Below, piece by piece: positions 13,200 through 57,743 of a stretch of 64,000 nt of DNA. The DNA lies in sequence record OR983333.1; one strand, 5' to 3'. A program made the translations under genes and the position numbers. This DNA comes from Escherichia phage 1-6af. The notes under the pieces were generated by a model. It worked only from the letters and a program-made list of their open reading frames with translations. It searched no databases and was not told the DNA's origin. Each line of letters begins with the position of its first letter. Within the stretch, counting starts at the first letter, position 1.

Positions 13200-13593
13200 T
13201 TCCTTTTTTGAATTGTTTTCTTGCATCATTCTCTTCTTTTGTTTTAATCTTATGACAAGGGTCTTTACATAGAACCTGAAAACCTTCTTTCTCACACAGA
13301 GCACGAGAGATGATTTCATCCCAAGTTGCTTCATGATCTAAGGGAACTATAGGCTCTATGTGGTCAATAGCCATATCCTTTACAGGGTGGTCAGAACCAC
13401 ACATGGCACATTTAAAGTGCATTGCCAGTCTTCCTGTCTTCGGATTAATCTTCTGCTCTGTCTTGGCGTCTGCTAGTGCATCGAACATGGGCTTCCACTT
13501 TCTAGTCAGAGAACGAATCCCTGACTTGATGAAAGAGTTGTAACGAGCTTCAGTCCACATTCCACTACAGCGAGTCTTCTCAGACTTCGCCAT
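13192..13593 (-). CDS. HNH homing endonuclease
   Basis: CxxC ... DHIEP ... C..CH zinc/HNH motifs. Confidence 0.7.
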   Translation of the reverse strand: MAKSEKTRCSGMWTEARYNSFIKSGIRSLTRKWKPMFDALADAKTEQKINPKTGRLAMHFKCAMCGSDHPVKDMAIDHIEPIVPLDHEATWDEIISRALCEKEGFQVLCKDPCHKIKTKEENDARKQFKKGNE

Positions 13594-13759
13594 AATCAGC
13601 TTCTTCCCAAACTCGTTTGTTTACACGATGACTCACTTTGCCCTCACGAGGAATACGACCAGTTCGCTGATCAAACAGTTGATGTTTAATCTTTTGATCT
13701 TTACGAGATTCACGATTGGATGAGTTTTCATCATATGAACGATAATCAAATTTACCCAT
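13580..13759 (-). CDS. hypothetical small protein (59 aa)
   Basis: Below ORF-track cutoff; ATG 13759 with AAGGA RBS; hand translation. Confidence 0.3.
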   Translation of the reverse strand: MGKFDYRSYDENSSNRESRKDQKIKHQLFDQRTGRIPREGKVSHRVNKRVWEEADYGEV

Positions 13760-13772
13760 TATAATATCCTTA

Positions 13773-14615
13773 TTACCAAGATTTATCTAACCATGTCCAG
13801 TCGAACAGGTCTTCCGGAGCCTGACCAACAAAGAGCAGCCGAGCATTCTCAAGCATCTTCTCTTCATCTTCAGTATCGAACTTCTTATAGTATTCCATTC
13901 GTACTATATGATACATGGTCCACTTATCTGTAACACCAGCCAACAATTTAGCTGCTGCCTTCTTCCCTATTCCTTGACGTCGAAGCTGAAGCTTACCGCC
14001 CCACATAACTTCTTTACGTTCCCCACATCCGGGGATATTATCCGTACCATCTCCAATCAACATTTGATAGAAGAAGTTTTGCCATGAGACTAAATCGGAT
14101 ACATAGTGAGGAGGAACTTCTTTCTGTCTTTCTCCACAAGCCCAGCGATAATGCCATCCGGGAGTTATCAACAAATCCTTGTCTCTAGTACAGATGATAG
14201 TATTCTTATCCCTACGTTGTCTTTCAGCTAGTGCATCATCAGCTTCTCTCCCAAAGACCTCAATGTATTCGTACTTGGCTTTAATGTAATCACCAACGTT
14301 TTGCCAGTGAAAAGGTCTTTCTCCGGGAGGTCTGTTTGCCTTGTAGTCTTGCTGCTTAGCAACATCAAAACGGAAGTTACCGCCTTCGCTGAAGTAGAAC
14401 ACAACCTTACTGCAACCTGAGCGAGCAATGATTGTATCTATCTTGTACTGAAGTCGTTCAATCATGAAATTGTAATCAACTGGAACACGTCCTGTGTCAA
14501 GAAAGGGATGCTCCTGAGTAAGAGCACCCACTTCATATCGAAGAACGTCAGCATCCACTATAGCAACTTCAGGGAGCTTAACTTCTTCCATAAATATCAT
14601 CCTGAGCTTGAGCAA
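13773..14615 (-). CDS. 5'-3' exonuclease / flap endonuclease (FEN, RNase H-like)
   Basis: C-terminal GDGTDNIPG motif and acidic DKD cluster typical of phage FEN. Confidence 0.7.
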   Translation of the reverse strand: MLKLRMIFMEEVKLPEVAIVDADVLRYEVGALTQEHPFLDTGRVPVDYNFMIERLQYKIDTIIARSGCSKVVFYFSEGGNFRFDVAKQQDYKANRPPGERPFHWQNVGDYIKAKYEYIEVFGREADDALAERQRRDKNTIICTRDKDLLITPGWHYRWACGERQKEVPPHYVSDLVSWQNFFYQMLIGDGTDNIPGCGERKEVMWGGKLQLRRQGIGKKAAAKLLAGVTDKWTMYHIVRMEYYKKFDTEDEEKMLENARLLFVGQAPEDLFDWTWLDKSW

Positions 14616-15467
14616 TAATCCAATCTAGATCTGAGACTGCTGATTCGATGGTTGAGTCATTAAACAGTAGATATGTTTTTCTCTGTTCGCCTTCAATATA
14701 TGAACGAGAGTCTCCATCAAAAGAGCAACCATCTCTAAGAACTTGGACAACTTGGACATGGAAATTCTTTTCTAGTTCTCGTACCTCTGCATCAAAACCT
14801 CCGTCAGTAAACACGACAATATCATCCTGACCTAGCCCTTCTTGTTTGATACTTTTTACAGCAAGATTCCCCATATGATTGTTGCCAAACATAGGTTTTA
14901 AGAAGTCTTCACTTGTAGAAATCATCAAATCTCTTACAGACTTCCCTCCCCATTCTGGTCTATGTTTTTCTTTCCATTCACGATCTTCATAGCGTGCTAG
15001 AAAATTTTCTAGAGGTATTCCTAGTGCAGCAGCAGCTACTCTGTACATTGGCTCCTTGAAGGATTTGGTTGAATATCCGTGGTGGTATGAATGGGCATTG
15101 ACCCAAGCATTGGCTATCGTATCTTTACCACAACCCGGAGGCCCATTAAGAATTACTACTAAAGGCTTATAGTGGGAATCTCCCACCATATTGGTCAGTG
15201 CTGGATTGCCTTGAGATTCCATTTCTAATTGCTCCGTGTGGTCATGTGAGTAATCTACTGGAGAAGTTTTGTTACCAGTAACTTTAGGTAAAATCGCTCT
15301 AGTTGTTTCTACGTATCTACCGCCATCAACATTGATTTGAAACTCTACAAGTTCATTCTGTAATTCATACCCTGATAAGTTGGATAGCTCCTCCAACTCA
15401 TCTCTGACGAAATTTAAATGTTTGATTTTAATTGCAAGAGCTTTCTTTAAAGCTTTTACCTCTTCAT

Positions 15468-15477
<10 letters not shown>
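14578..15477 (-). CDS. P-loop deoxynucleoside monophosphate kinase-like protein
   Basis: GPPGCGKDT P-loop and FTDGGFDAE / VQVLRDG motifs resembling T4 gp1; about 100-aa N-terminal coiled-coil extension. Confidence 0.5.
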
Positions 15478-16963
<1,486 letters not shown>

Positions 16964-36713: not shown

Positions 36714-37910
36714 TTAGTAGTTTACAACAGTGCCATCATTCAGGGTAATGCTATTAATCTGCAACACACGACCAAGCTGACGATCACTAATTGGAGCATT
36801 CCAGCCAGAGCGGTAGAAGTTACGACCGCAGAAGAAAACAATTACGTTACTTGCTACAGTTGAACCGTTTTCAGGATGCTTGATGTTAGCGATGTAATAA
36901 CCACGACGCAGATTACGACGGGTGATCGGGGTGATCTCTAACCCTTGCTCTTCAACTTGCATCGTTTCAGGAACAGGTTCCGAAGATTCTTCAGCAACTG
37001 GCTCAGCTGTTAATGCAAAGTTCTCATCATCTGCTGATTCAGCAAATTCTTCTTCCGCTTCTTCAACAGGCAGTTGGTAAGCAACACGATAGTCAGGTTC
37101 AACACCAGAGAAGCTCTTAACAAACTCAACGATATTGTGAGTGTAAGTCTCCAGAGTTGTACCAGTCAGTCCCGGAGCTGTATTTACTTCCAGAACCCAA
37201 GCGTTATTCCCTTTACTAATCAGATCAACAGCACCGAAGTTTAAGCCCAGAGCAGATACAGCTTTGTGAGCTTGAATCAGAACTTGATCAGGAGGAGCTT
37301 CAGTGAATGCGTTAGAATAAACCCAACCAGTGTGATGGTTACGAATATCTTCACGGTAGCTTTCCAGTTCACGATATCCATTACGACGAATCTTCTTCTG
37401 AACGTAAGTGATAACACCTTCAAACACATGAACACGCCATTCACGACGTGGGCCTTGAATACCTTTCGTATACAGAGGAGCACTTGCAACACCTTCTCCC
37501 GGAAGACGAACGGTGATACCTTCACCAGAGTGACCAGTTAAGGTTGCACGTTCATAAACAATTTCGGTTCGGTTCCAGTTCAGAGCTAATTCGTGATCGA
37601 TAGTGTATTCAACAGTCTTAACTTCAGCCAAACGCAATGCGTTGAACGCTGCAATCTTGTTAGCCGCTCGGTTCAGAGCTTCAACAGGGTTCAATACGGT
37701 TGCACCACCAAAGAAAGAAGCATCATAACGGCGGTTGCCATAGTTTACAACAATATCACCAGCTCGAGAACGATAACGAGAGCCTTCTGATACCAAAGAC
37801 ATTACGTTAGCATTTAAGCGGAGTTCCTGAATCTTAGTATTAATTGCAGAAGTAAGTTCACGAACTGAATCGGAAGGGCCATAAGGAAGAACACGGATAC
37901 GAGTAGTCAT
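36714..37910 (-). CDS. RimK-like ATP-grasp ligase
   Basis: ATP-grasp motifs EWRVHVFEG and FGAVDLI...WVLEVNTAPGL; acidic linker and C-terminal extra domain. Confidence 0.75.
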   Translation of the reverse strand: MTTRIRVLPYGPSDSVRELTSAINTKIQELRLNANVMSLVSEGSRYRSRAGDIVVNYGNRRYDASFFGGATVLNPVEALNRAANKIAAFNALRLAEVKTVEYTIDHELALNWNRTEIVYERATLTGHSGEGITVRLPGEGVASAPLYTKGIQGPRREWRVHVFEGVITYVQKKIRRNGYRELESYREDIRNHHTGWVYSNAFTEAPPDQVLIQAHKAVSALGLNFGAVDLISKGNNAWVLEVNTAPGLTGTTLETYTHNIVEFVKSFSGVEPDYRVAYQLPVEEAEEEFAESADDENFALTAEPVAEESSEPVPETMQVEEQGLEITPITRRNLRRGYYIANIKHPENGSTVASNVIVFFCGRNFYRSGWNAPISDRQLGRVLQINSITLNDGTVVNY

Positions 37911-45700: not shown

Positions 45701-45926
45701 ATTTCCTCTCGTTGAATTTAAAAAAGGACTCTCCGAAAAGAGTCAAGCTTTAAATACAAAAAGATATTACCCAATATCTGTGGATAACCTGCTCTTAAAA
45801 TATCTATCCGACGGATGTTCGAGGAATGTTCCTCTCCCTAGCATCGGCCCCATACGGGAAATATATTAAGATTAGGTTAGTTGAGTCAGAATAACTCACA
45901 TAGCCCTCCGAAGAAGGCTATAGGTG

Positions 45927-46160
45927 TTACTCGCCTTTCTTAGCACGGTCTTTGGCAGTCTTGCCAGTGCGGATGCGGTGTGAAACGTTAACCAGAGTGC
46001 CACCTTCAACTACAGTAACGCTCTTGTTTTTAGCCAGATCAAACACAGTCTTCTCTGTGCCGCCCAAGCGAATTTGCTTAGGCTCACTGAAGGTTTGGGT
46101 TGATTTAGATTGGAACTGGAATGGTTGACGGATTGCATCAATTGCGCTTACTTTAGACAT
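45927..46160 (-). CDS. hypothetical protein
   Basis: 77-aa basic ORF with AAGGAA RBS. Confidence 0.4.
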   Translation of the reverse strand: MSKVSAIDAIRQPFQFQSKSTQTFSEPKQIRLGGTEKTVFDLAKNKSVTVVEGGTLVNVSHRIRTGKTAKDRAKKGE

Positions 46161-47679: not shown

Positions 47680-47706
47680 ACATCCTCCAATTAGATATTA
47701 TTCGAT

Positions 47707-47853
47707 TTGGTTACAGGTGTAGGATTCGAACCTACGCTCGGACTCCCTAGCCATCACCAAAGGAATGCATCCAATGGGCATACGGTCATTTGACCACGGG
47801 CGACTGCTTTACCGTAGGCTCTGCATTAGTGAGCCTCATAAGCTATACCTGTA
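47707..47853 (-). other. tRNA-like element of non-canonical length
   Basis: Minus strand reads GTAGG-TTCGAAT-CCTAC (T-arm), ACCTGTA, A, CCA; the only complementary 5' acceptor (TACAGGT) lies about 147 nt upstream, so no standard cloverleaf. Confidence 0.3.
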
Positions 47854-47982
47854 ACTAATTGCCAGGGATTCCACCTGGCTCCATCTGTTTTTAAAGTCAC
47901 TCAGATATCGTCCGGACTCTTTGCTGAGGGCCGTACAGGCTACTTCAAGTAACTGCTGTAAAGATTATTCCACAGCTTACCA

Positions 47983-48081: not shown

Positions 48082-48327
48082 TAATTTATAAATAGGGGGA
48101 GGGGACGAATCCTCCCTTATCCTATTAATTAGTATTGCATGTAAGATCTAACAATCGGTTGCCTTTGTAGGAATAAGCGTTATGCTAATCCAGCACTAAA
48201 CTCCCGCCCCCTTAGTGGGCTGGGTTATTAAAGGGTAACGCCCTTATGGGCTAGTTACATGAATGTTAGTTTGATAGGAGATCTGAAGTCCTATCTCAAA
48301 GGACTCTCGTAAGAATCCTTCACGATA

Positions 48328-48459
48328 TTACTTATTCATCTCTCGTCGGCTATCTCTCCAAGCCAACCAAGTGTAGGTTTTCAGTTCTTCAAAGTCTTCT
48401 GGAGAGAATAGATACTCTTTGAAGGTATCACCAAACCACTTTAAAAATTCTTCAGTCAT
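48328..48459 (-). CDS. hypothetical small protein (43 aa)
   Basis: Below cutoff; hand translation; weak AAGAGA RBS. Confidence 0.25.
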   Translation of the reverse strand: MTEEFLKWFGDTFKEYLFSPEDFEELKTYTWLAWRDSRREMNK

Positions 48460-49420: not shown

Positions 49421-49510
49421 TCCAAGAGCCTCTAGCGAGGATGACAGGGTTCGAACCTGCATACTCCAATTACTTCTTTAACGACCGCTTAGAAGGCGGG
49501 GAAGATACAT
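49421..49510. repeat. palindromic tRNA-like intergenic element
   Basis: 13-bp perfect inverted repeat TCTAGCGAGGATG ... CATCCTCGCTAGA enclosing GGTTCGAACC and a CCGC-CTTCTAA-GCGG stem-loop (minus sense). Confidence 0.45.
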
Positions 49511-49525
49511 CCTCGCTAGAAGCTC

Positions 49526-49966
49526 TTATTTATTATTGAAACCCTTGCTCCAGTAATACTTACCGTTGCAAGACCTACTACAAAAATGGTTTTGGTTTTC
49601 TTTGTGGACCTTGTTACCCCTTCTCTCAAAAGATGTGCCACAATTACTACAAATCAAAGTAATGACCACACCCTTAGGTCTGTTCTCTAAGGTCTTCTTT
49701 AGGTGATCATTTGTGCTTAGAATCTGAAGGTTAGATATCTCATCATTGGTTGGATTTTGATCAACATGATCTACCTCTTCCTCCGCAGTAAGATACCTCC
49801 CTACATGGCAAGACATTAAATACCTTGCATAAGAGATCGTAGTCCTATCTGTGTTAGAATTGAATAGGTCAACACGCCTCCTCCCATCCTTACTTGTCCT
49901 TAAATACCCCAACCTCCAGTCATTGATGAAGGGGTATTCCAACTCTATTTTCAATACCACCTCCAT
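49526..49966 (-). CDS. HNH homing endonuclease
   Basis: HNH motif EEVDHVDQNPTNDEISNL...NDH plus C-terminal zinc ribbon. Confidence 0.65.
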   Translation of the reverse strand: MEVVLKIELEYPFINDWRLGYLRTSKDGRRRVDLFNSNTDRTTISYARYLMSCHVGRYLTAEEEVDHVDQNPTNDEISNLQILSTNDHLKKTLENRPKGVVITLICSNCGTSFERRGNKVHKENQNHFCSRSCNGKYYWSKGFNNK

Positions 49967-51365: not shown

Positions 51366-51393
51366 AAACAACAAAGGCCGCCCGAAGGCAGCC
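51366..51393 (-). terminator. intrinsic terminator
   Basis: GGCTGCC-ttcg-GGCGGCC hairpin with T-rich runs on both sides. Confidence 0.5.
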
Positions 51394-51402
51394 TTTTATT
51401 TA

Positions 51403-51543
51403 TTAACTGTTATACGTCCAACCACCTTGCTTGTTACGAATGGCTGACATTGCATGAATCCAAAAGCCTTCCAGTTTCAGAGCACCGTTAGCTACTGCAT
51501 CCATACGTTCAGGGCGGTTCATACGTTTGGTTGATACTTTCAT
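51403..51543 (-). CDS. hypothetical small protein (46 aa)
   Basis: Below cutoff; hand translation. Confidence 0.3.
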   Translation of the reverse strand: MKVSTKRMNRPERMDAVANGALKLEGFWIHAMSAIRNKQGGWTYNS

Positions 51544-51901
51544 ACCTATCTCTCTTTGTTAGTGGAGGCATTATTGCCAGTTGATATAAGGAATAGCCCT
51601 AGTCAGTAGACTAATCCTGACCGCGTACTCATTGCCGACCTTCTCTGCCTAAGAGTTCAGGTTCTAGAGCTATCTCTTATTCCAACTGGTGAAGACTCCC
51701 TACCCCTAGGAAGTCTCCTGAATCCCAAACTAATACGTACCCCTACATATCAGAAAGTCTTTCGAAAATTAACAGGTTTTAGTCTAGCACCGGATGTTCG
51801 AGCAAGCTCTCCCTAGCGGTGTGGCATATGCCTGAATTAATAAGTTAATGAGGAACACCCTCACATAGCCCTCTGATAAACACAAGGGCTATAAGTCGGT
51901 G

Positions 51902-52120
51902 TTACTTTTGAGTCAAATACAAATCAGGGCGAGGCATAACAGTGGTTGATGGATTGAAATTACCAACATAACCAGTGCTTAGATTGGCAGCCCTGCGTAG
52001 TCCATTAGAGAGATCATCATCTAGCATCAGCCAGAATTTTTGATCATAAGAGAAAACATCTCCCCCTTTAAGATCTTCCACATTTGCATATTTAGGAGTC
52101 TCAACTACTTTAATTTCCAT
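51902..52120 (-). CDS. small beta-rich protein (paralog family member)
   Basis: VEDLKGGDVF..QKFWL motif. Confidence 0.45.
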   Translation of the reverse strand: MEIKVVETPKYANVEDLKGGDVFSYDQKFWLMLDDDLSNGLRRAANLSTGYVGNFNPSTTVMPRPDLYLTQK

Positions 52121-56305: not shown

Positions 56306-57118
56306 CTTTCAATTGTAAGGGCGCTATTGCCCCGCTCTCTATGAGCTTGTTTAAGTCACTATTAACTTAACTATAACCACTCGTTGTTAAGTAGTTATAG
56401 GTAAGCGGGGCGGTCTTATCAGGAGTTAACCTTGCCGCCCCCTTATCCGTGATGTTTCATCTGGTATCTTTAATTAGTCGCTATAAACGAAGCCGACCTG
56501 ATAGCGATGATCAATCATCACAATAAGGCTGTGTGTCCGACTCTAATTAGTTACATTATTGTAACCGTCGGCAATATCGTCCACTTTGCTTTCGCTCTCG
56601 CCTATCCTTTTATATCAGCTCTCTATCGCTAGTCATCGCCCACTACGGGATACTATTGCGAAAGAGTCACTAACCGCCTAATATTCCGACGTTTTATATC
56701 TTTCAGCGAGTTTACTACATTACCCGACTATGTACTTTCATCATAAGATGAATCTCAAGCCGTTCACATCGTAAACGTTCACACTAAACCTTATTGTTAA
56801 ATAGCAATTTGCCACTTTTAACCACTCCCCGCCGCCCTCAATTGGGCGTTAATTCGTCGGGATTGCCTACCCTGATTAACTTCTTTCACTGTAGCGCCTT
56901 GTTAGCGATGACCGCCGCTACCCTTAACCGTGGGCGATTAGCTTAAGCCTTTGCGTGCACTCAATGAATCCGTTTACCAGTGGTGACGTTTCCAGTAAGG
57001 GAATGTAAAACTGTTTACCCTGATAATTTAGGGAGTTTTACGCCGTTTTATCTGGTATGCTTTCCGATGGTTATTATCATCCAGCATATTCAACCGATAT
57101 AGGAGAATGTTTAAATTA

Positions 57119-57743
57119 TTAAAGAGCGGTAAATCTATCAGTGTGCTTTCTCACACTATGCAACTGTTAGCCGTTGTTACGCTTTCCTTAAGCGGTGATT
57201 TGCTTAAGTGATGCTCATTATGAATCATGTTGTTTTCGCTGTCAACCGCTTTTTAATCTTTTTTCGTCGTTCCCGCTATTGGGAGGATATATCAATCAGC
57301 TTTATTTGATTGAAGATTAAGCGGTGATGCTTAACTTATGATTCATATTGTTAAAGAGCGTTAGCCTTTTAGAGTGTCTGCTAATCACTGTCACATTTAA
57401 GGCTTACTTATTCATTAACGGGCCGCCTACACCCGAACTACTCGCTGCACTATGTGCCACTTTTCCCGCGATACGTTGATTTGGGAACTTGTTAGCGGTG
57501 TATCTGCTAACTTGTGGTTAGTATGGACTACTTTAACCACGTTTGCAACTCTTTTTATCATCTTCTTTTAATTCCTTTCCCTTATCTCGCGTGAATCTAT
57601 GCGAAAGGGCAAGATGATAAGTTTTTAAAGAGCGGGATTTTTTAAGTCATCGCTGACTATGCTCACTATATATCAGGCTGTTTTCGGTGTCAATACTCTT
57701 TTTGAGAATATTTTCACTTTCTAACCTGATTTTTAAAGAGCGG
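57119..57743. repeat. dispersed TTAAAGAGCGG repeats inside a 1.8-kb ORF-free region
   Basis: Copies at 57119, 57351, 57625, 57733 (plus strand) and an inverted GAGCGGGGCAAT copy at 56326-56338; also TWAGCGGTGW-like repeats. Confidence 0.45.

What the first reader, a model, noticed from the sequence alone, without database searches (positions are those of the whole stretch)
51543..51901. Conserved intergenic module, copy 2
Second copy of the module above: hairpin ATAGCCCT-CTGATAAACACA-AGGGCTAT at 51865-51892 and CACCG-GATGTTCGAG-CAAGCTC-TCCCTAG-CGGTG at 51788-51821. Stems differ from copy 1 but pairing is maintained.
Basis: seen in the sequence. Interest (0 to 1): 0.5.

Follow-up and report, generated by a model that had tools for sequence, protein, structure and literature searches.

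The report
New structured RNA in coliphage early operon
The flagged intergenic stretch encodes a real, apparently undescribed folded RNA element, kept in two to three copies per genome and shared by three families of enterobacterial phages, whose function is unknown but probably concerns how the long early transcript is continued, ended or cut.

Summary
The window is a Kuravirus (phiEco32-like) coliphage whose early genes lie on the minus strand.

The finding is the 358-nt gap between the phi32_113 and phi32_112 homologues. Its first 125 nt (51904-51780, minus strand) form a structured RNA. It consists of hairpins H1 and H2, then a three-way junction made of closing helix Pc, hairpin H3 and hairpin H4. 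H4 carries an invariant 7x7 internal loop, CUAGGGA/GAACAUC.

A paralogue lies at 45929-45801 and a relative without H4 at 48330-48226.

In 40 distinct sequences, 99.5% of predicted pairs are standard pairs and 12 of 21 pairs show compensatory changes. Slid controls give 30-44% paired.

G-U pairs and UUCG, CUUG and GNRA tetraloops point to RNA of gene sense.

The module is the best-conserved segment of its locus. It occurs next to unrelated genes in Kuravirus, Suseptimavirus, Moazamivirus (7-11) and Citrovirus-like phages. Rfam and the literature searches gave nothing.

Function is inferred only. I favour a gene-independent, cis-acting element bound by some factor through the H4 loop. It would govern read-through of the intrinsic terminators downstream, in the manner of put or nut sites (about 0.3). 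RNA processing or stability, and a trans-acting ncRNA, are close rivals.

The parts
51780..51904 (-). Copy 2 of the module (the finding). It runs from the UAA stop of the upstream ORF through hairpin H4 and the UAGA tail.
   Evidence: cmsearch 123.3 bits, E 2.8e-28. It is 85-100% identical in 98 phage records. It is the most conserved segment of the locus.
51865..51892 (-). H1: AUAGCCCU / 12-nt loop / AGGGCUAU.
   Evidence: Eight pairs, 100% paired in 40 sequences, 5 of them with two-sided changes once distant members are included.
51850..51862 (-). H2: GAGG / GUGUU / CCUC.
   Evidence: Read from the sequences. The fourth pair is G-C here, U-A in copy 1 and C-G in SU7 copy 1. The stem is longer in 7-11 (GAGUUA/UAACUC) and has a different sequence in L044 and VR7901. 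MAFFT misaligns this region, so there are no formal counts.
51844..51849 (-). Pc 5' strand (AUUAAC) of the closing helix.
   Evidence: It is complementary to GUUAAU at 51768-51773. The SU7 copy 2 MFE fold forms the equivalent AAUUAAC/GUUAAUU helix around H3 and H4. Support is weaker than for the copy-1 type.
51823..51832 (-). H3: GGC / AUAU / GCC.
   Evidence: Pair types GC:21 CG:18 UA:1 and CG:27 GC:13. Variants seen are CCC-GUAU-GGG, GCC-AUAU-GGC and GCC-GUAU-GGC.
51788..51821 (-). H4. P1 is CACCG/CGGUG. The invariant internal loop is CUAGGGA (51810-51816) opposite GAACAUC (51793-51799). P2 is GAG/CUC with a CUUG loop (51800-51809).
   Evidence: Four of six P1 pairs have two-sided changes. 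Loop residues are invariant except one coupled A/C-G/A position.
51768..51773 (-). Pc 3' strand (GUUAAU).
51544..51779 (-). Second structured domain of the copy-2 gap. It has two hairpins with UAGGGGUA tops (51733-51750 and 51691-51718) and a CUAGGGCUAU at about 51602. It ends at the ribosome-binding site of the 46-aa ORF.
   Evidence: Conserved across Kuravirus and Suseptimavirus with covarying stems seen by eye in the alignment. There are 5 UAGGG within 215 nt, against about 0.3 expected.
51403..51543 (-). 46-aa ORF, the phi32_112 homologue, immediately downstream of copy 2.
   Evidence: PHROG 13305, function unknown. A homologue is annotated in 7-11 as gp135.
51373..51396 (-). Intrinsic terminator after the 46-aa ORF. 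It is the first terminator downstream of copy 2.
   Evidence: A 10-bp stem with a UUCG loop and a U-rich tail.
45801..45929 (-). Copy 1 of the module. H1 is 45899-45922, H2 45882-45898, H3 45849-45858 and H4 45808-45847.
   Evidence: cmsearch 136.5 bits; fold.
45785..45879 (-). Copy-1 three-way junction. Closing helix Pc (UAACCU..UCUUAA at 45866-45879, paired with UUAAGA..AGGUUA at 45785-45805) encloses H3 and H4.
   Evidence: RNAalifold on 14 copy-1-type sequences, with a compensatory A-U to U-A change in 7-11-like phages. Single-sequence MFE folds of six lineages give the same junction.
45721..45744 (-). Intrinsic terminator 57 nt after copy 1 (GACUCU-UUUCGG-AGAGUC, then C and U6). It is conserved together with the module in Kuravirus, Suseptimavirus and 7-11-like phages.
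   Evidence: It is annotated as a terminator in the 7-11 and SU7 records.
48226..48330 (-). A third, H4-less relative (c3'). Its order is GUAAUAUC, H1', H2', AAACUAAC, then GUAAC / H3' (GCCC-AUAA-GGGC) / GUUAC.
   Evidence: A weak cmsearch hit of 13.7 bits. The gap folds with z = -3.6. A close homologue with a changed H1' stem is in phage PKM.Lu.22.1 (18.6 bits).

Best explanation
SHOWN. The region encodes a structured RNA of gene sense (minus strand), about 125-160 nt long. It has two tandem hairpins (H1, H2) starting within about 0-20 nt of the upstream stop codon. These are followed by a three-way junction of closing helix Pc, hairpin H3 and hairpin H4. H4 carries an invariant symmetric 7x7 internal loop. 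No conserved promoter lies upstream, so it is transcribed as part of the long early polycistronic mRNA. It is kept at the same genome positions in two to three diverged paralogous copies, and its neighbouring genes differ between phages. INFERRED. Because it is independent of particular flanking genes, yet each copy is kept separately at its own place, it most likely acts in cis on the transcript or transcription complex that carries it. It would be recognised through the invariant H4 loop by one common factor: host RNA polymerase, a Nus-type factor, an RNase, or a phage protein. MY COMMITTED GUESS. It is a terminator read-through (processive antitermination) signal that works like HK022 put or lambda nut. 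Once transcribed, the folded RNA, alone or with a bound factor, stays with the elongating polymerase. The polymerase then passes the intrinsic terminators just downstream: 57 nt after copy 1, about 110 nt after c3', and after the small ORF following copy 2. Transcripts that lack the signal would stop there. Confidence that this is a genuine conserved structured RNA is about 0.95. Confidence that it acts in cis and independently of the flanking genes is about 0.6. Confidence in the antitermination mechanism itself is about 0.3.
For: Structure. 99.5% of 828 cells pair, and 12 of 21 pairs have two-sided changes, against 0-4 in slid controls. Strand and RNA nature. Recurrent U-G pairs (UG:16, UG:21 and GU:4) would be A-C mismatches on the other strand. 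The sense fold is more stable in 32 of 39 sequences. Loops are the RNA-type tetraloops UUCG, CUUG and GUAA. Constraint. The module is 93.5% identical on average to the window across 14 relatives, against 65.5% for the upstream ORF and 84.4% for the downstream ORF. Gene independence. At least seven different upstream contexts abut the same module 5' edge. Downstream lies a small membrane protein in Kuravirus but an endolysin in 7-11. Unrelated ORFs flank it in L044 and VR7901. Link to terminators. The copy-1 module and its terminator are conserved as one block from Kuravirus to 7-11, while the flanking coding DNA is unalignable. The sense-strand terminators at 51396, 48116 and 45744 each follow a module. 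No sigma70-like promoter above chance lies after the copy-1 terminator, so I infer that phi32_90 and the genes beyond it depend on read-through. Need. [quoted passage not shown] 7-11 carries the module but has no sense-strand BoxA in the 45 kb searched.
Against: There is no experimental evidence of any kind. Known put and nut sites lie close to their promoters, whereas these modules lie kilobases into the operon. Two strong sense-strand terminators (53815, 53900) lie upstream of copy 2. Kuravirus already has four consensus BoxA sites next to its early promoters, which may account for antitermination without this RNA. The module's own linker (CUCAUUAAC) is not a consensus BoxA. Copy-2-type units in L044 and VR7901 have no terminator, or only a weak terminator-like hairpin, after them. 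The near-perfect sequence conservation of the copy-1 terminator stem fits an RNA whose 3' end is that terminator (an sRNA) at least as well. No N-like or Q-like protein was identified next to the module.
Confidence: 0.3

Rival explanations
1. An RNA processing and stability 'punctuation' site, working like the RNase III sites between T7 early genes. A host RNase (RNase III on the coaxial Pc-H4 stack, or RNase E nearby) would cut the polycistronic RNA at the module. The upstream mRNA would be left with protective 3' hairpins (H1, H2) and the downstream mRNA with a structured 5' end.
For: It is intercistronic and starts right after stop codons. It occurs in several copies per genome with a conserved internal loop and covarying stems, as T7 R-sites do (established knowledge of T7). 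It has very stable UUCG/CUUG-capped hairpins. It is independent of the flanking genes.
Against: H4 alone (5-7 bp, a 7x7 loop, then 3-5 bp) is shorter than the roughly two helical turns RNase III needs. The AU-rich linker that might have been an RNase E site is mostly paired in helix Pc. Simple stabilisers do not need a 125-nt, five-helix architecture with invariant loop residues. In VR7901 the 3' side of the loop differs.
Confidence: 0.25
2. A trans-acting stable non-coding RNA. Copy 1 plus its terminator would be a 3'-UTR-derived RNA of about 205-220 nt. It would titrate or guide a host or phage protein through the repeated UAGGG-containing loops.
For: The module and terminator travel as one highly conserved block between distant phages in different gene contexts, and the terminator stem sequence itself is conserved. 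There are five UAGGG motifs in the copy-2 gap, and UAGGGGUA hairpin tops recur in VR7901, as in protein-sponge RNAs.
Against: There is no conserved promoter of its own. Paralogous copies with diverged helices are kept at fixed syntenic positions, which is expected for cis elements rather than for redundant trans RNAs. Copy-2-type units have no terminator directly after them. No extended similarity to any E. coli sequence was found.
Confidence: 0.2
3. A riboswitch-like or protein-dependent attenuator. Binding to the three-way junction would stabilise helix Pc, sequester its 3' strand (AAGAGC), and so allow the copy-1 terminator to form.
For: The order is aptamer-sized junction, then terminator, then ribosome-binding site. 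The Pc 3' strand AAGAGC is complementary to GCUCUU in the 5' arm and loop of the terminator in some Kuravirus genomes (read).
Against: The alternative pairing is only 4-6 bp and is not conserved in 7-11 or in the window. Downstream genes are unrelated between phages. Copy-2-type units lack the terminator. The family is narrow and phage-only, which is unlike metabolite riboswitches.
Confidence: 0.06
4. A DNA-level element: a recombination hot spot or cassette boundary (like T4 PeSL), a DnaA-bound site, or an origin.
For: Gene content changes exactly at the module's 5' edge in different phages, and EcoN5 has a tandem duplication that includes copy 1. A perfect DnaA box, TTATCCACA, at 45779-45787 is invariant in all copy-1-type units, including pSal-SNUABM-01.
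Against: Compensatory changes, G-U pairs and RNA tetraloops point to a single-stranded RNA of one sense. Half of the 'DnaA box' is the Pc 3' strand. There is one box, not a cluster. Copy 2, L044 and VR7901 lack it. No promoter signal is above chance. Mosaic boundaries at any conserved sequence are a by-product of homologous recombination.
Confidence: 0.07

Closest known systems
HK022 put RNAs (putL, putR)
   Same: Folded RNA elements present in two diverged copies within a phage's early operons. They lie upstream of terminators and act (for put) in cis on the polymerase that made them. Pairing is maintained between the copies. No dedicated protein gene is evident.
   Different: Put is about 70 nt with two stem-loops and sits just downstream of the promoters. 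This module is 125-160 nt with five helices, including a three-way junction, and lies kilobases into the operon. The function of the module is untested.
Lambda-type nut sites (boxA + boxB) and rrn BoxA antitermination
   Same: A cis RNA signal in an early operon. The same phage has four consensus BoxA elements near its early promoters. The module linker CUC-A-UUAAC loosely resembles GCUCUUUAAC.
   Different: The linker fails the BoxA consensus GYTCTTTAANA, and part of it is paired in H2 and Pc. There is no boxB-like hairpin with a conserved loop, because P2 and H1 loops vary freely. No N-like protein was found.
T7/T3 early-region RNase III processing sites
   Same: Intercistronic position, several copies per genome, a conserved internal loop between covarying helices, and independence from particular genes.
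   Different: T7 sites are single irregular hairpins of about 50-60 nt. Here the conserved unit is a multi-helix domain, and the loop-bearing hairpin is short. Cleavage has not been shown.
3'-UTR-derived enterobacterial sRNAs
   Same: Copy 1 lies directly after a stop codon and ends at a conserved intrinsic terminator, as such sRNAs do.
   Different: There is no evidence of a discrete RNA species, no obvious single-stranded seed, and copy 2 has no adjacent terminator.
T4-type PeSL (promoter-early stem-loop) cassette boundaries
   Same: Repeated intergenic elements in an early region made of many small ORFs, with gene content changing at the element.
   Different: PeSLs are an early promoter plus a simple stem-loop. 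This module has no supported promoter, and its elaborate RNA fold shows covariation.

Membership tests
Any Rfam 15 family | A covariance-model score at or above the family's gathering threshold. | tested here: not met
   Whole-window cmscan gave only a borderline tRNA at 49436-49514. Permissive scans (E up to 10) of both gaps and of the c3' gap gave only chance-level hits of 10-20 bits against thresholds of 36-219.
BoxA / nut-type antitermination site | A match to the gamma-proteobacterial BoxA consensus GYTCTTTAANA (PMC5725501). | tested here: not met
   The four perfect matches in the window are all at 57117-57741, and none is in the modules. The module linker reads CCTCATTAACT or ACTCAACTAAC.
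BoxA / nut-type antitermination site | A boxB-type hairpin with a conserved loop, bound by an N-like arginine-rich protein encoded nearby. | tested here: inconclusive
   Hairpin loops (P2, H1) vary freely, and the conserved residues are in an internal loop instead. The neighbouring 46-aa protein has a basic N-terminus (KRMNRPER) but no Pfam hit and only PHROGs of unknown function.
HK022 put RNA | Sits in an early operon upstream of terminators and occurs in two diverged copies that keep the same fold. | tested here: met
   Copies lie at 51780-51904 and 45801-45929 within the early gene block. Sense-strand terminators are at 51396 and 45744. Compensatory differences between the copies are shown.
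HK022 put RNA | A two-stem-loop architecture of about 70 nt directly downstream of the promoter, and protein-independent modification of RNA polymerase. | not testable with these tools
   The architecture clearly differs (five helices, 125-160 nt). No put sequence or model was available for comparison. Activity needs in-vitro transcription.
T7-type RNase III processing site | An irregular double-stranded hairpin of about two helical turns, cut by RNase III at its internal loop. | tested here: inconclusive
   H4 spans 5-7 bp, a 7x7 loop, then 3-5 bp. It reaches two turns only if stacked on Pc. Cleavage cannot be tested here.
Riboswitch / transcription attenuator | Mutually exclusive terminator and antiterminator pairings conserved across members, and association with a consistent gene function. 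| tested here: not met
   The candidate antiterminator AAGAGC/GCUCUU is 4-6 bp and is not conserved in 7-11 or in the window. Downstream genes are unrelated between phages.
   H1 is followed by GUGAG and then H2. The scan reports terminators at 51396 and 45744, not at H1 or H4.
tRNA / tRNA-like gene | A cloverleaf detected by ARAGORN or by the Rfam tRNA model. | tested here: not met
   ARAGORN found nothing in the window, and there is no tRNA hit in the modules.
Kink-turn / tandem sheared G-A motif (for the H4 loop) | A three-nucleotide bulge next to tandem G-A/A-G pairs. | tested here: not met
   The loop is symmetric (7x7) with no bulge. A tandem GA/GA next to P2 is possible, and its A/C-G/A variation (A-G, C-A, A-A) suits a non-Watson-Crick pair. 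But VR7901 replaces GAA by UCAC.
phi32 gp36 (phage sigma) promoter | The single element tAATGTAtA (PMC8948821). | tested here: not met
   There are no matches with up to one mismatch inside either module.
DnaA-dependent origin | A cluster of DnaA boxes next to an AT-rich unwinding element. | tested here: not met
   There is one perfect box at 45779-45787 and no others within kilobases. It is absent from copy-2-type units.

The most novel reading that the evidence does not exclude
The module is a self-sufficient RNA that, once transcribed, reprograms E. coli or Salmonella RNA polymerase to ignore intrinsic terminators without any phage protein. It would be a second, structurally unrelated class of put-like RNA. 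That would also answer the open question of how 7-11 and phiEco32-type phages carry early transcription across tens of kilobases.
Probability: 0.12. Interest if true: 0.85.

Novelty: new variant of a known kind. Interest (0 to 1): 0.6.

Why it matters
Kuraviruses and their relatives, such as ES17, SU10 and the 7-11 group, are studied as therapeutic phages and as models of phage control of host transcription through a phage sigma factor and gp79.

Their early genes are read as very long polycistronic transcripts that cross several strong terminators. The published work on 7-11 says the antitermination strategy is unknown (PMC8948821).

A conserved, well-folded RNA with an invariant recognition loop, kept at fixed positions just ahead of terminators in three phage families, is a concrete and mutable candidate for that missing control element.

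Whatever its role, it is a clean new RNA family with enough covariation to enter Rfam. It also marks places where annotators currently call spurious small ORFs, for example Bas88_0102/0103 and Bas89_0106/0107.

Tried and rejected
1. BoxA inside the module. The linker only resembles BoxA. The consensus search hits four other sites and none in the modules.

2. Phage-sigma promoter tAATGTAtA. It is absent from the modules.

3. Sigma70 promoter in the module. Copy 1 has a 9-of-12 match (CTGACT-18-TATATT), but promoter-like hits in the region are not above shuffles and this one is not conserved in copy 2.

4. Protein coding. Only a 33-aa TTG ORF overlaps copy 2. Relatives differ by 1-nt and 4-nt length changes (124, 125 or 129 nt).

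5. Mimicry of a host RNA. There was no BLAST match of copy 1 in 5,426 E. coli genomes. This test is insensitive to short motifs.

6. A wider family search with a relaxed pattern (TATG..GCTAGGG..AACATCCG) in IMG/VR. It returned only known members plus chance hits inside coding regions. The soil metagenome hits (L029, L030, L035, L036, L039) and the Moorena hit (L045) are also chance.

7. A second copy in 7-11 near its phi32_112 homologue. None was found, even with the filters off.

8. A pseudoknot between the invariant UCCACAG after Pc and the H1-H2 junction. It gives only 4 bp and is not conserved in 7-11 (checked by eye on the sequences).

9. The 5' leader pairing with the P1 3' strand in copy 2 (UAACACCG/CGGUGUUA). 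It is not possible in copy 1.

10. The two J. Mol. Biol. papers on phiEco32 transcription (PMC3275717, PMC2587145) are not held, so mapped 5' ends could not be checked.

Full report
WHAT THE WINDOW IS. The stretch around the finding is 99.8% identical to Escherichia phages 1-6bf and FH3, and 85-97% identical to about 100 phiEco32-like phages. These belong to Kuravirus and Suseptimavirus in the Gordonclarkvirinae. The many small early genes lie on the minus strand. The finding (51543-51901) is the 358-nt gap between the homologues of phi32_113 (51902-52120) and phi32_112 (51403-51543). 'Copy 1' is the 226-nt gap 45701-45926, upstream of the phi32_90 homologue.

THE OBSERVATION. Both hairpins are at exactly the stated coordinates. 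The shared cores GCTAGGGAGAG, CTCGAACATCCG and AGGGCTATGTGAG each occur twice in 64 kb, only at these two loci. Both gaps fold far better than shuffled sequence, with z = -3.4 and -4.8.

ANATOMY, READ ON THE MINUS STRAND.
- The module begins at or just after the upstream stop codon (UAAC or UGAC).
- H1 is UAUAGCC..GGCUAUG, at 51865-51892.
- H2 follows after two nucleotides (GAGN..N'CUC, 51850-51862).
- A linker carries a conserved YUAAC.
- H3 is a 3-bp stem closed on an RUAU loop (51823-51832).
- H4 follows directly (51788-51821). It has a 5-7 bp stem P1, a symmetric internal loop CUAGGG(A/C) opposite (G/A)AACAUC, and a short stem P2 (GAG/CUC plus 0-2 pairs) capped by freely varying loops such as CUUG, GUAA and ACAU.
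- The linker pairs with sequence 3' of H4 to form closing helix Pc. H3 and H4 therefore sit on a three-way junction.
- Pc is UAACCU..UCUUAA / UUAAGA..AGGUUA in copy 1, and AUUAAC/GUUAAU in copy 2.
- RNAalifold on copy-1-type sequences predicts Pc and shows a compensatory A-U to U-A change in 7-11-like phages.
- Single-sequence MFE folds of six lineages give the same junction.

COVARIATION.
- RNAalifold on a MAFFT alignment of 36 unique sequences recovered H1, H3 and H4 unaided.
- On that alignment 99.6% of cells are standard pairs. Eight of 21 pairs have two-sided changes. Sliding the 3' partner by 1-3 columns drops pairing to 31-46% and two-sided changes to 0-3 pairs.
- With distant members added, using an alignment fitted to the model, 12 of 21 pairs have two-sided changes and 99.5% of cells pair.
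- P1 exists as CCGAUG/CGUCGG, CACCG/CGGUG, UCGGUG/CGCCGA, AUAGCG/CGCUAU and CAGCG/CGCUG.
- H3 exists as CCC/GGG, GGC/GCC and GCC/GGC.
- The number of independent events is smaller than the cell counts suggest, because there are only a handful of lineages. Even so, there are at least about ten.
- H2 also covaries by eye (G-C, U-A and C-G at its fourth pair, with different sequences in L044 and VR7901). MAFFT misaligns it, so I give no formal count.

WHICH STRAND AND WHICH MOLECULE. Recurrent U-G pairs would be A-C mismatches on the plus strand. The sense fold is more stable in 32 of 39 unique sequences, with mean MFE -39.2 against -35.0 kcal/mol. Loops are the classic RNA tetraloops UUCG, CUUG and GNRA. 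The functional form is therefore RNA of gene sense, or formally single-stranded DNA of that sense.

CONSTRAINT AND DISTRIBUTION.
- Across 14 relatives the module averages 93.5% identity to the window. The upstream ORF averages 65.5%, the rest of the gap 82.8% and the 46-aa ORF 84.4%.
- Exact-core scans and the covariance model found two copies per Kuravirus or Suseptimavirus genome. EcoN5 has three, through a tandem duplication.
- One copy is present in Salmonella phage 7-11 and its relatives: pSal-SNUABM-01 and metagenome contigs L022 and L038 (Moazamivirus, Grimontviridae).
- More distant versions occur in a Citrovirus-like contig binned with a Flavobacterium MAG (L044, 65 bits) and in Klebsiella phage KpnP_VR7901 (Zobellviridae, 37 bits).
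- It was not found in GAP52 (40-76.6 kb), Pecta or CVT22 (22-47.6 kb).
- A third, H4-less relative lies at 48226-48330 in the window and in phage PKM.Lu.22.1.
- Rfam has no matching family. Four literature searches found no description. The SU10 and 7-11 genome and transcription papers do not mention it.

CONTEXT THAT BEARS ON FUNCTION.
- No conserved promoter precedes the module. Upstream genes differ between phages right up to its 5' edge. It is therefore made as part of the early polycistronic RNA.
- According to the SU10 paper, that RNA starts at three sigma70 promoters in the large spacer upstream.
- Downstream genes also differ. They are a 50-aa membrane protein in Kuravirus, an endolysin in 7-11, and unrelated small ORFs in L044 and VR7901. 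This argues against a gene-specific operator or riboswitch.
- In the copy-1 type, the module is followed by an invariant AGGUUAUCCACAG and a strong intrinsic terminator. All of this is conserved as one block from Kuravirus to 7-11, while the flanking coding DNA is unalignable.
- In the window, each of the three modules precedes a sense-strand terminator. The distances are 57 nt, about 110 nt, and 384 nt with the 46-aa ORF in between.
- The rest of the copy-2 gap is a second conserved structured domain. It has two UAGGGGUA-topped hairpins, and five UAGGG in 215 nt. A similar hairpin follows the module in VR7901 and L044.

MECHANISM.
- What is shown is a conserved, folded, gene-independent RNA element with an invariant internal loop, kept in separate copies at fixed operon positions. 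Diverged paralogues kept separately at syntenic sites point to a cis role. The invariant loop points to one common binding partner.
- I commit, at about 0.3, to terminator read-through control in the manner of HK022 put or lambda nut. This would answer the need, stated for 7-11, for an undefined antitermination strategy. It would also explain why a strong terminator sits in mid-operon directly behind the element.
- Against this, the modules are far from the promoters, and two terminators precede copy 2. Kuravirus also has four consensus BoxA sites by its early promoters that may suffice, and some copy-2-type units lack a clear terminator.
- An RNase processing and stability site (about 0.25) and a trans-acting, terminator-ended ncRNA or protein sponge (about 0.2) fit nearly as well.
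- A riboswitch-type attenuator (about 0.06) and DNA-level roles (about 0.07) are unlikely, for the reasons listed under the rival explanations.

VERDICT. It is a new RNA family of a known general kind: cis-acting structured elements in phage early operons. It has strong comparative support and no known function. Interest 0.6.

Noticed in passing
window 57117-57741 (minus strand): Four perfect matches to the BoxA consensus GYTCTTTAANA lie on the early-gene strand within 625 nt, and there are none elsewhere in 64 kb (0.6 expected; 0 of 100 shuffles reach 4). Most lie shortly downstream of a sigma70-like promoter (for example TTGACA-N17-TATAGT at about 57690-57660 and TTGACA-N17-CATAAT at about 57245-57215; no promoter was identified upstream of the box at 57349-57359) in the ORF-free early leader. 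This suggests Nus-factor/BoxA antitermination of Kuravirus early transcription. I found no mention of it in the papers I could read. It is absent from the sense strand of 7-11 (45-89.9 kb).
   Followed up: partly
window 49436-49514 (minus strand), next to ORF 49526-49966: Relatives carry an ordinary tRNA-Arg(UCU) at this position. The window instead has a variant with a different acceptor stem, no D-arm and an extra insert of about 18 nt. It is embedded in a stem of about 19 bp (AGAGCUUCUAGCGAGGAUG / CAUCCUCGCUAGAGGCUCU). Rfam tRNA scores 29.7 bits, just over threshold, and ARAGORN finds nothing. It lies directly beside an HNH-endonuclease-like ORF that phiEco32, SU7 and EcoN5 lack at this position.
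   Followed up: partly
window about 47700-47860 (minus strand): A tRNA-like 3' half (GUAGGUUCGAAUCCUAC then ACCUGUAAC-CA) has an acceptor strand that pairs with GUUACAGGU about 140 nt upstream. It lies in a 648-nt gap free of ATG-initiated ORFs of 38 aa or more, and also contains GCUAGGGAG. No tool calls it a tRNA. Similar orphan T-arm/acceptor sequences lie in the 710-nt gap downstream of 7-11 gp135 (L040 about 37150-37300).
   Followed up: no
window 48092-48327 (minus strand); L042 4552-4654: A third structured intergenic unit shares the 5' half of the module (leader, H1', H2', AAACUAAC, H3') but has no H4. It is followed by CACUAA-GGGGGCGGGAG-UUUAGUG and a terminator-like hairpin at 48097-48116. 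It is conserved, with a changed H1' stem, in the Grimontviridae phage PKM.Lu.22.1.
   Followed up: partly
window 45779-45787 (minus strand): A perfect high-affinity DnaA box, TTATCCACA, lies within the invariant AGGTTATCCACAG between copy 1 and its terminator. It is kept in every copy-1-type unit from Kuravirus to 7-11 and pSal-SNUABM-01. AGGUUA is explained by helix Pc. The invariant UCCACA(G) is not explained.
   Followed up: partly
window 51601-51815 (minus strand): UAGGG occurs five times in 215 nt, against about 0.3 expected. The sites are the H4 loop, two hairpin tops reading UAGGGGUA, one within the 3' arm of the second of those hairpins, and CUAGGGCUAU, which repeats the H1 3' arm AGGGCUAU. 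A UAGGGGUA hairpin also follows the module in Klebsiella phage VR7901.
   Followed up: partly
L012 (EcoN5) 13211-15932: A tandem duplication of about 1.5 kb carries two small genes, copy 1 of the module, its terminator and the following genes. EcoN5 therefore has three full modules.
   Followed up: no
L046 (Peptococcaceae MAG contig) and L044 (Flavobacterium MAG contig): Both look like phage contigs mis-binned into bacterial MAGs. L046 carries a Kuravirus-type copy 1 with its flanks. L044's nearest relatives are Citrovirus phages of Enterobacterales. L044 also encodes a run of small paralogous proteins that all end in (D/E)EENE.
   Followed up: partly
window 51784-51885; L010 9025-9293; L011 9026-9349: Small ORFs annotated in some GenBank relatives (Bas88_0102/0103, Bas89_0106/0107) lie inside the structured RNA gap and are probably spurious calls.
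   Followed up: no
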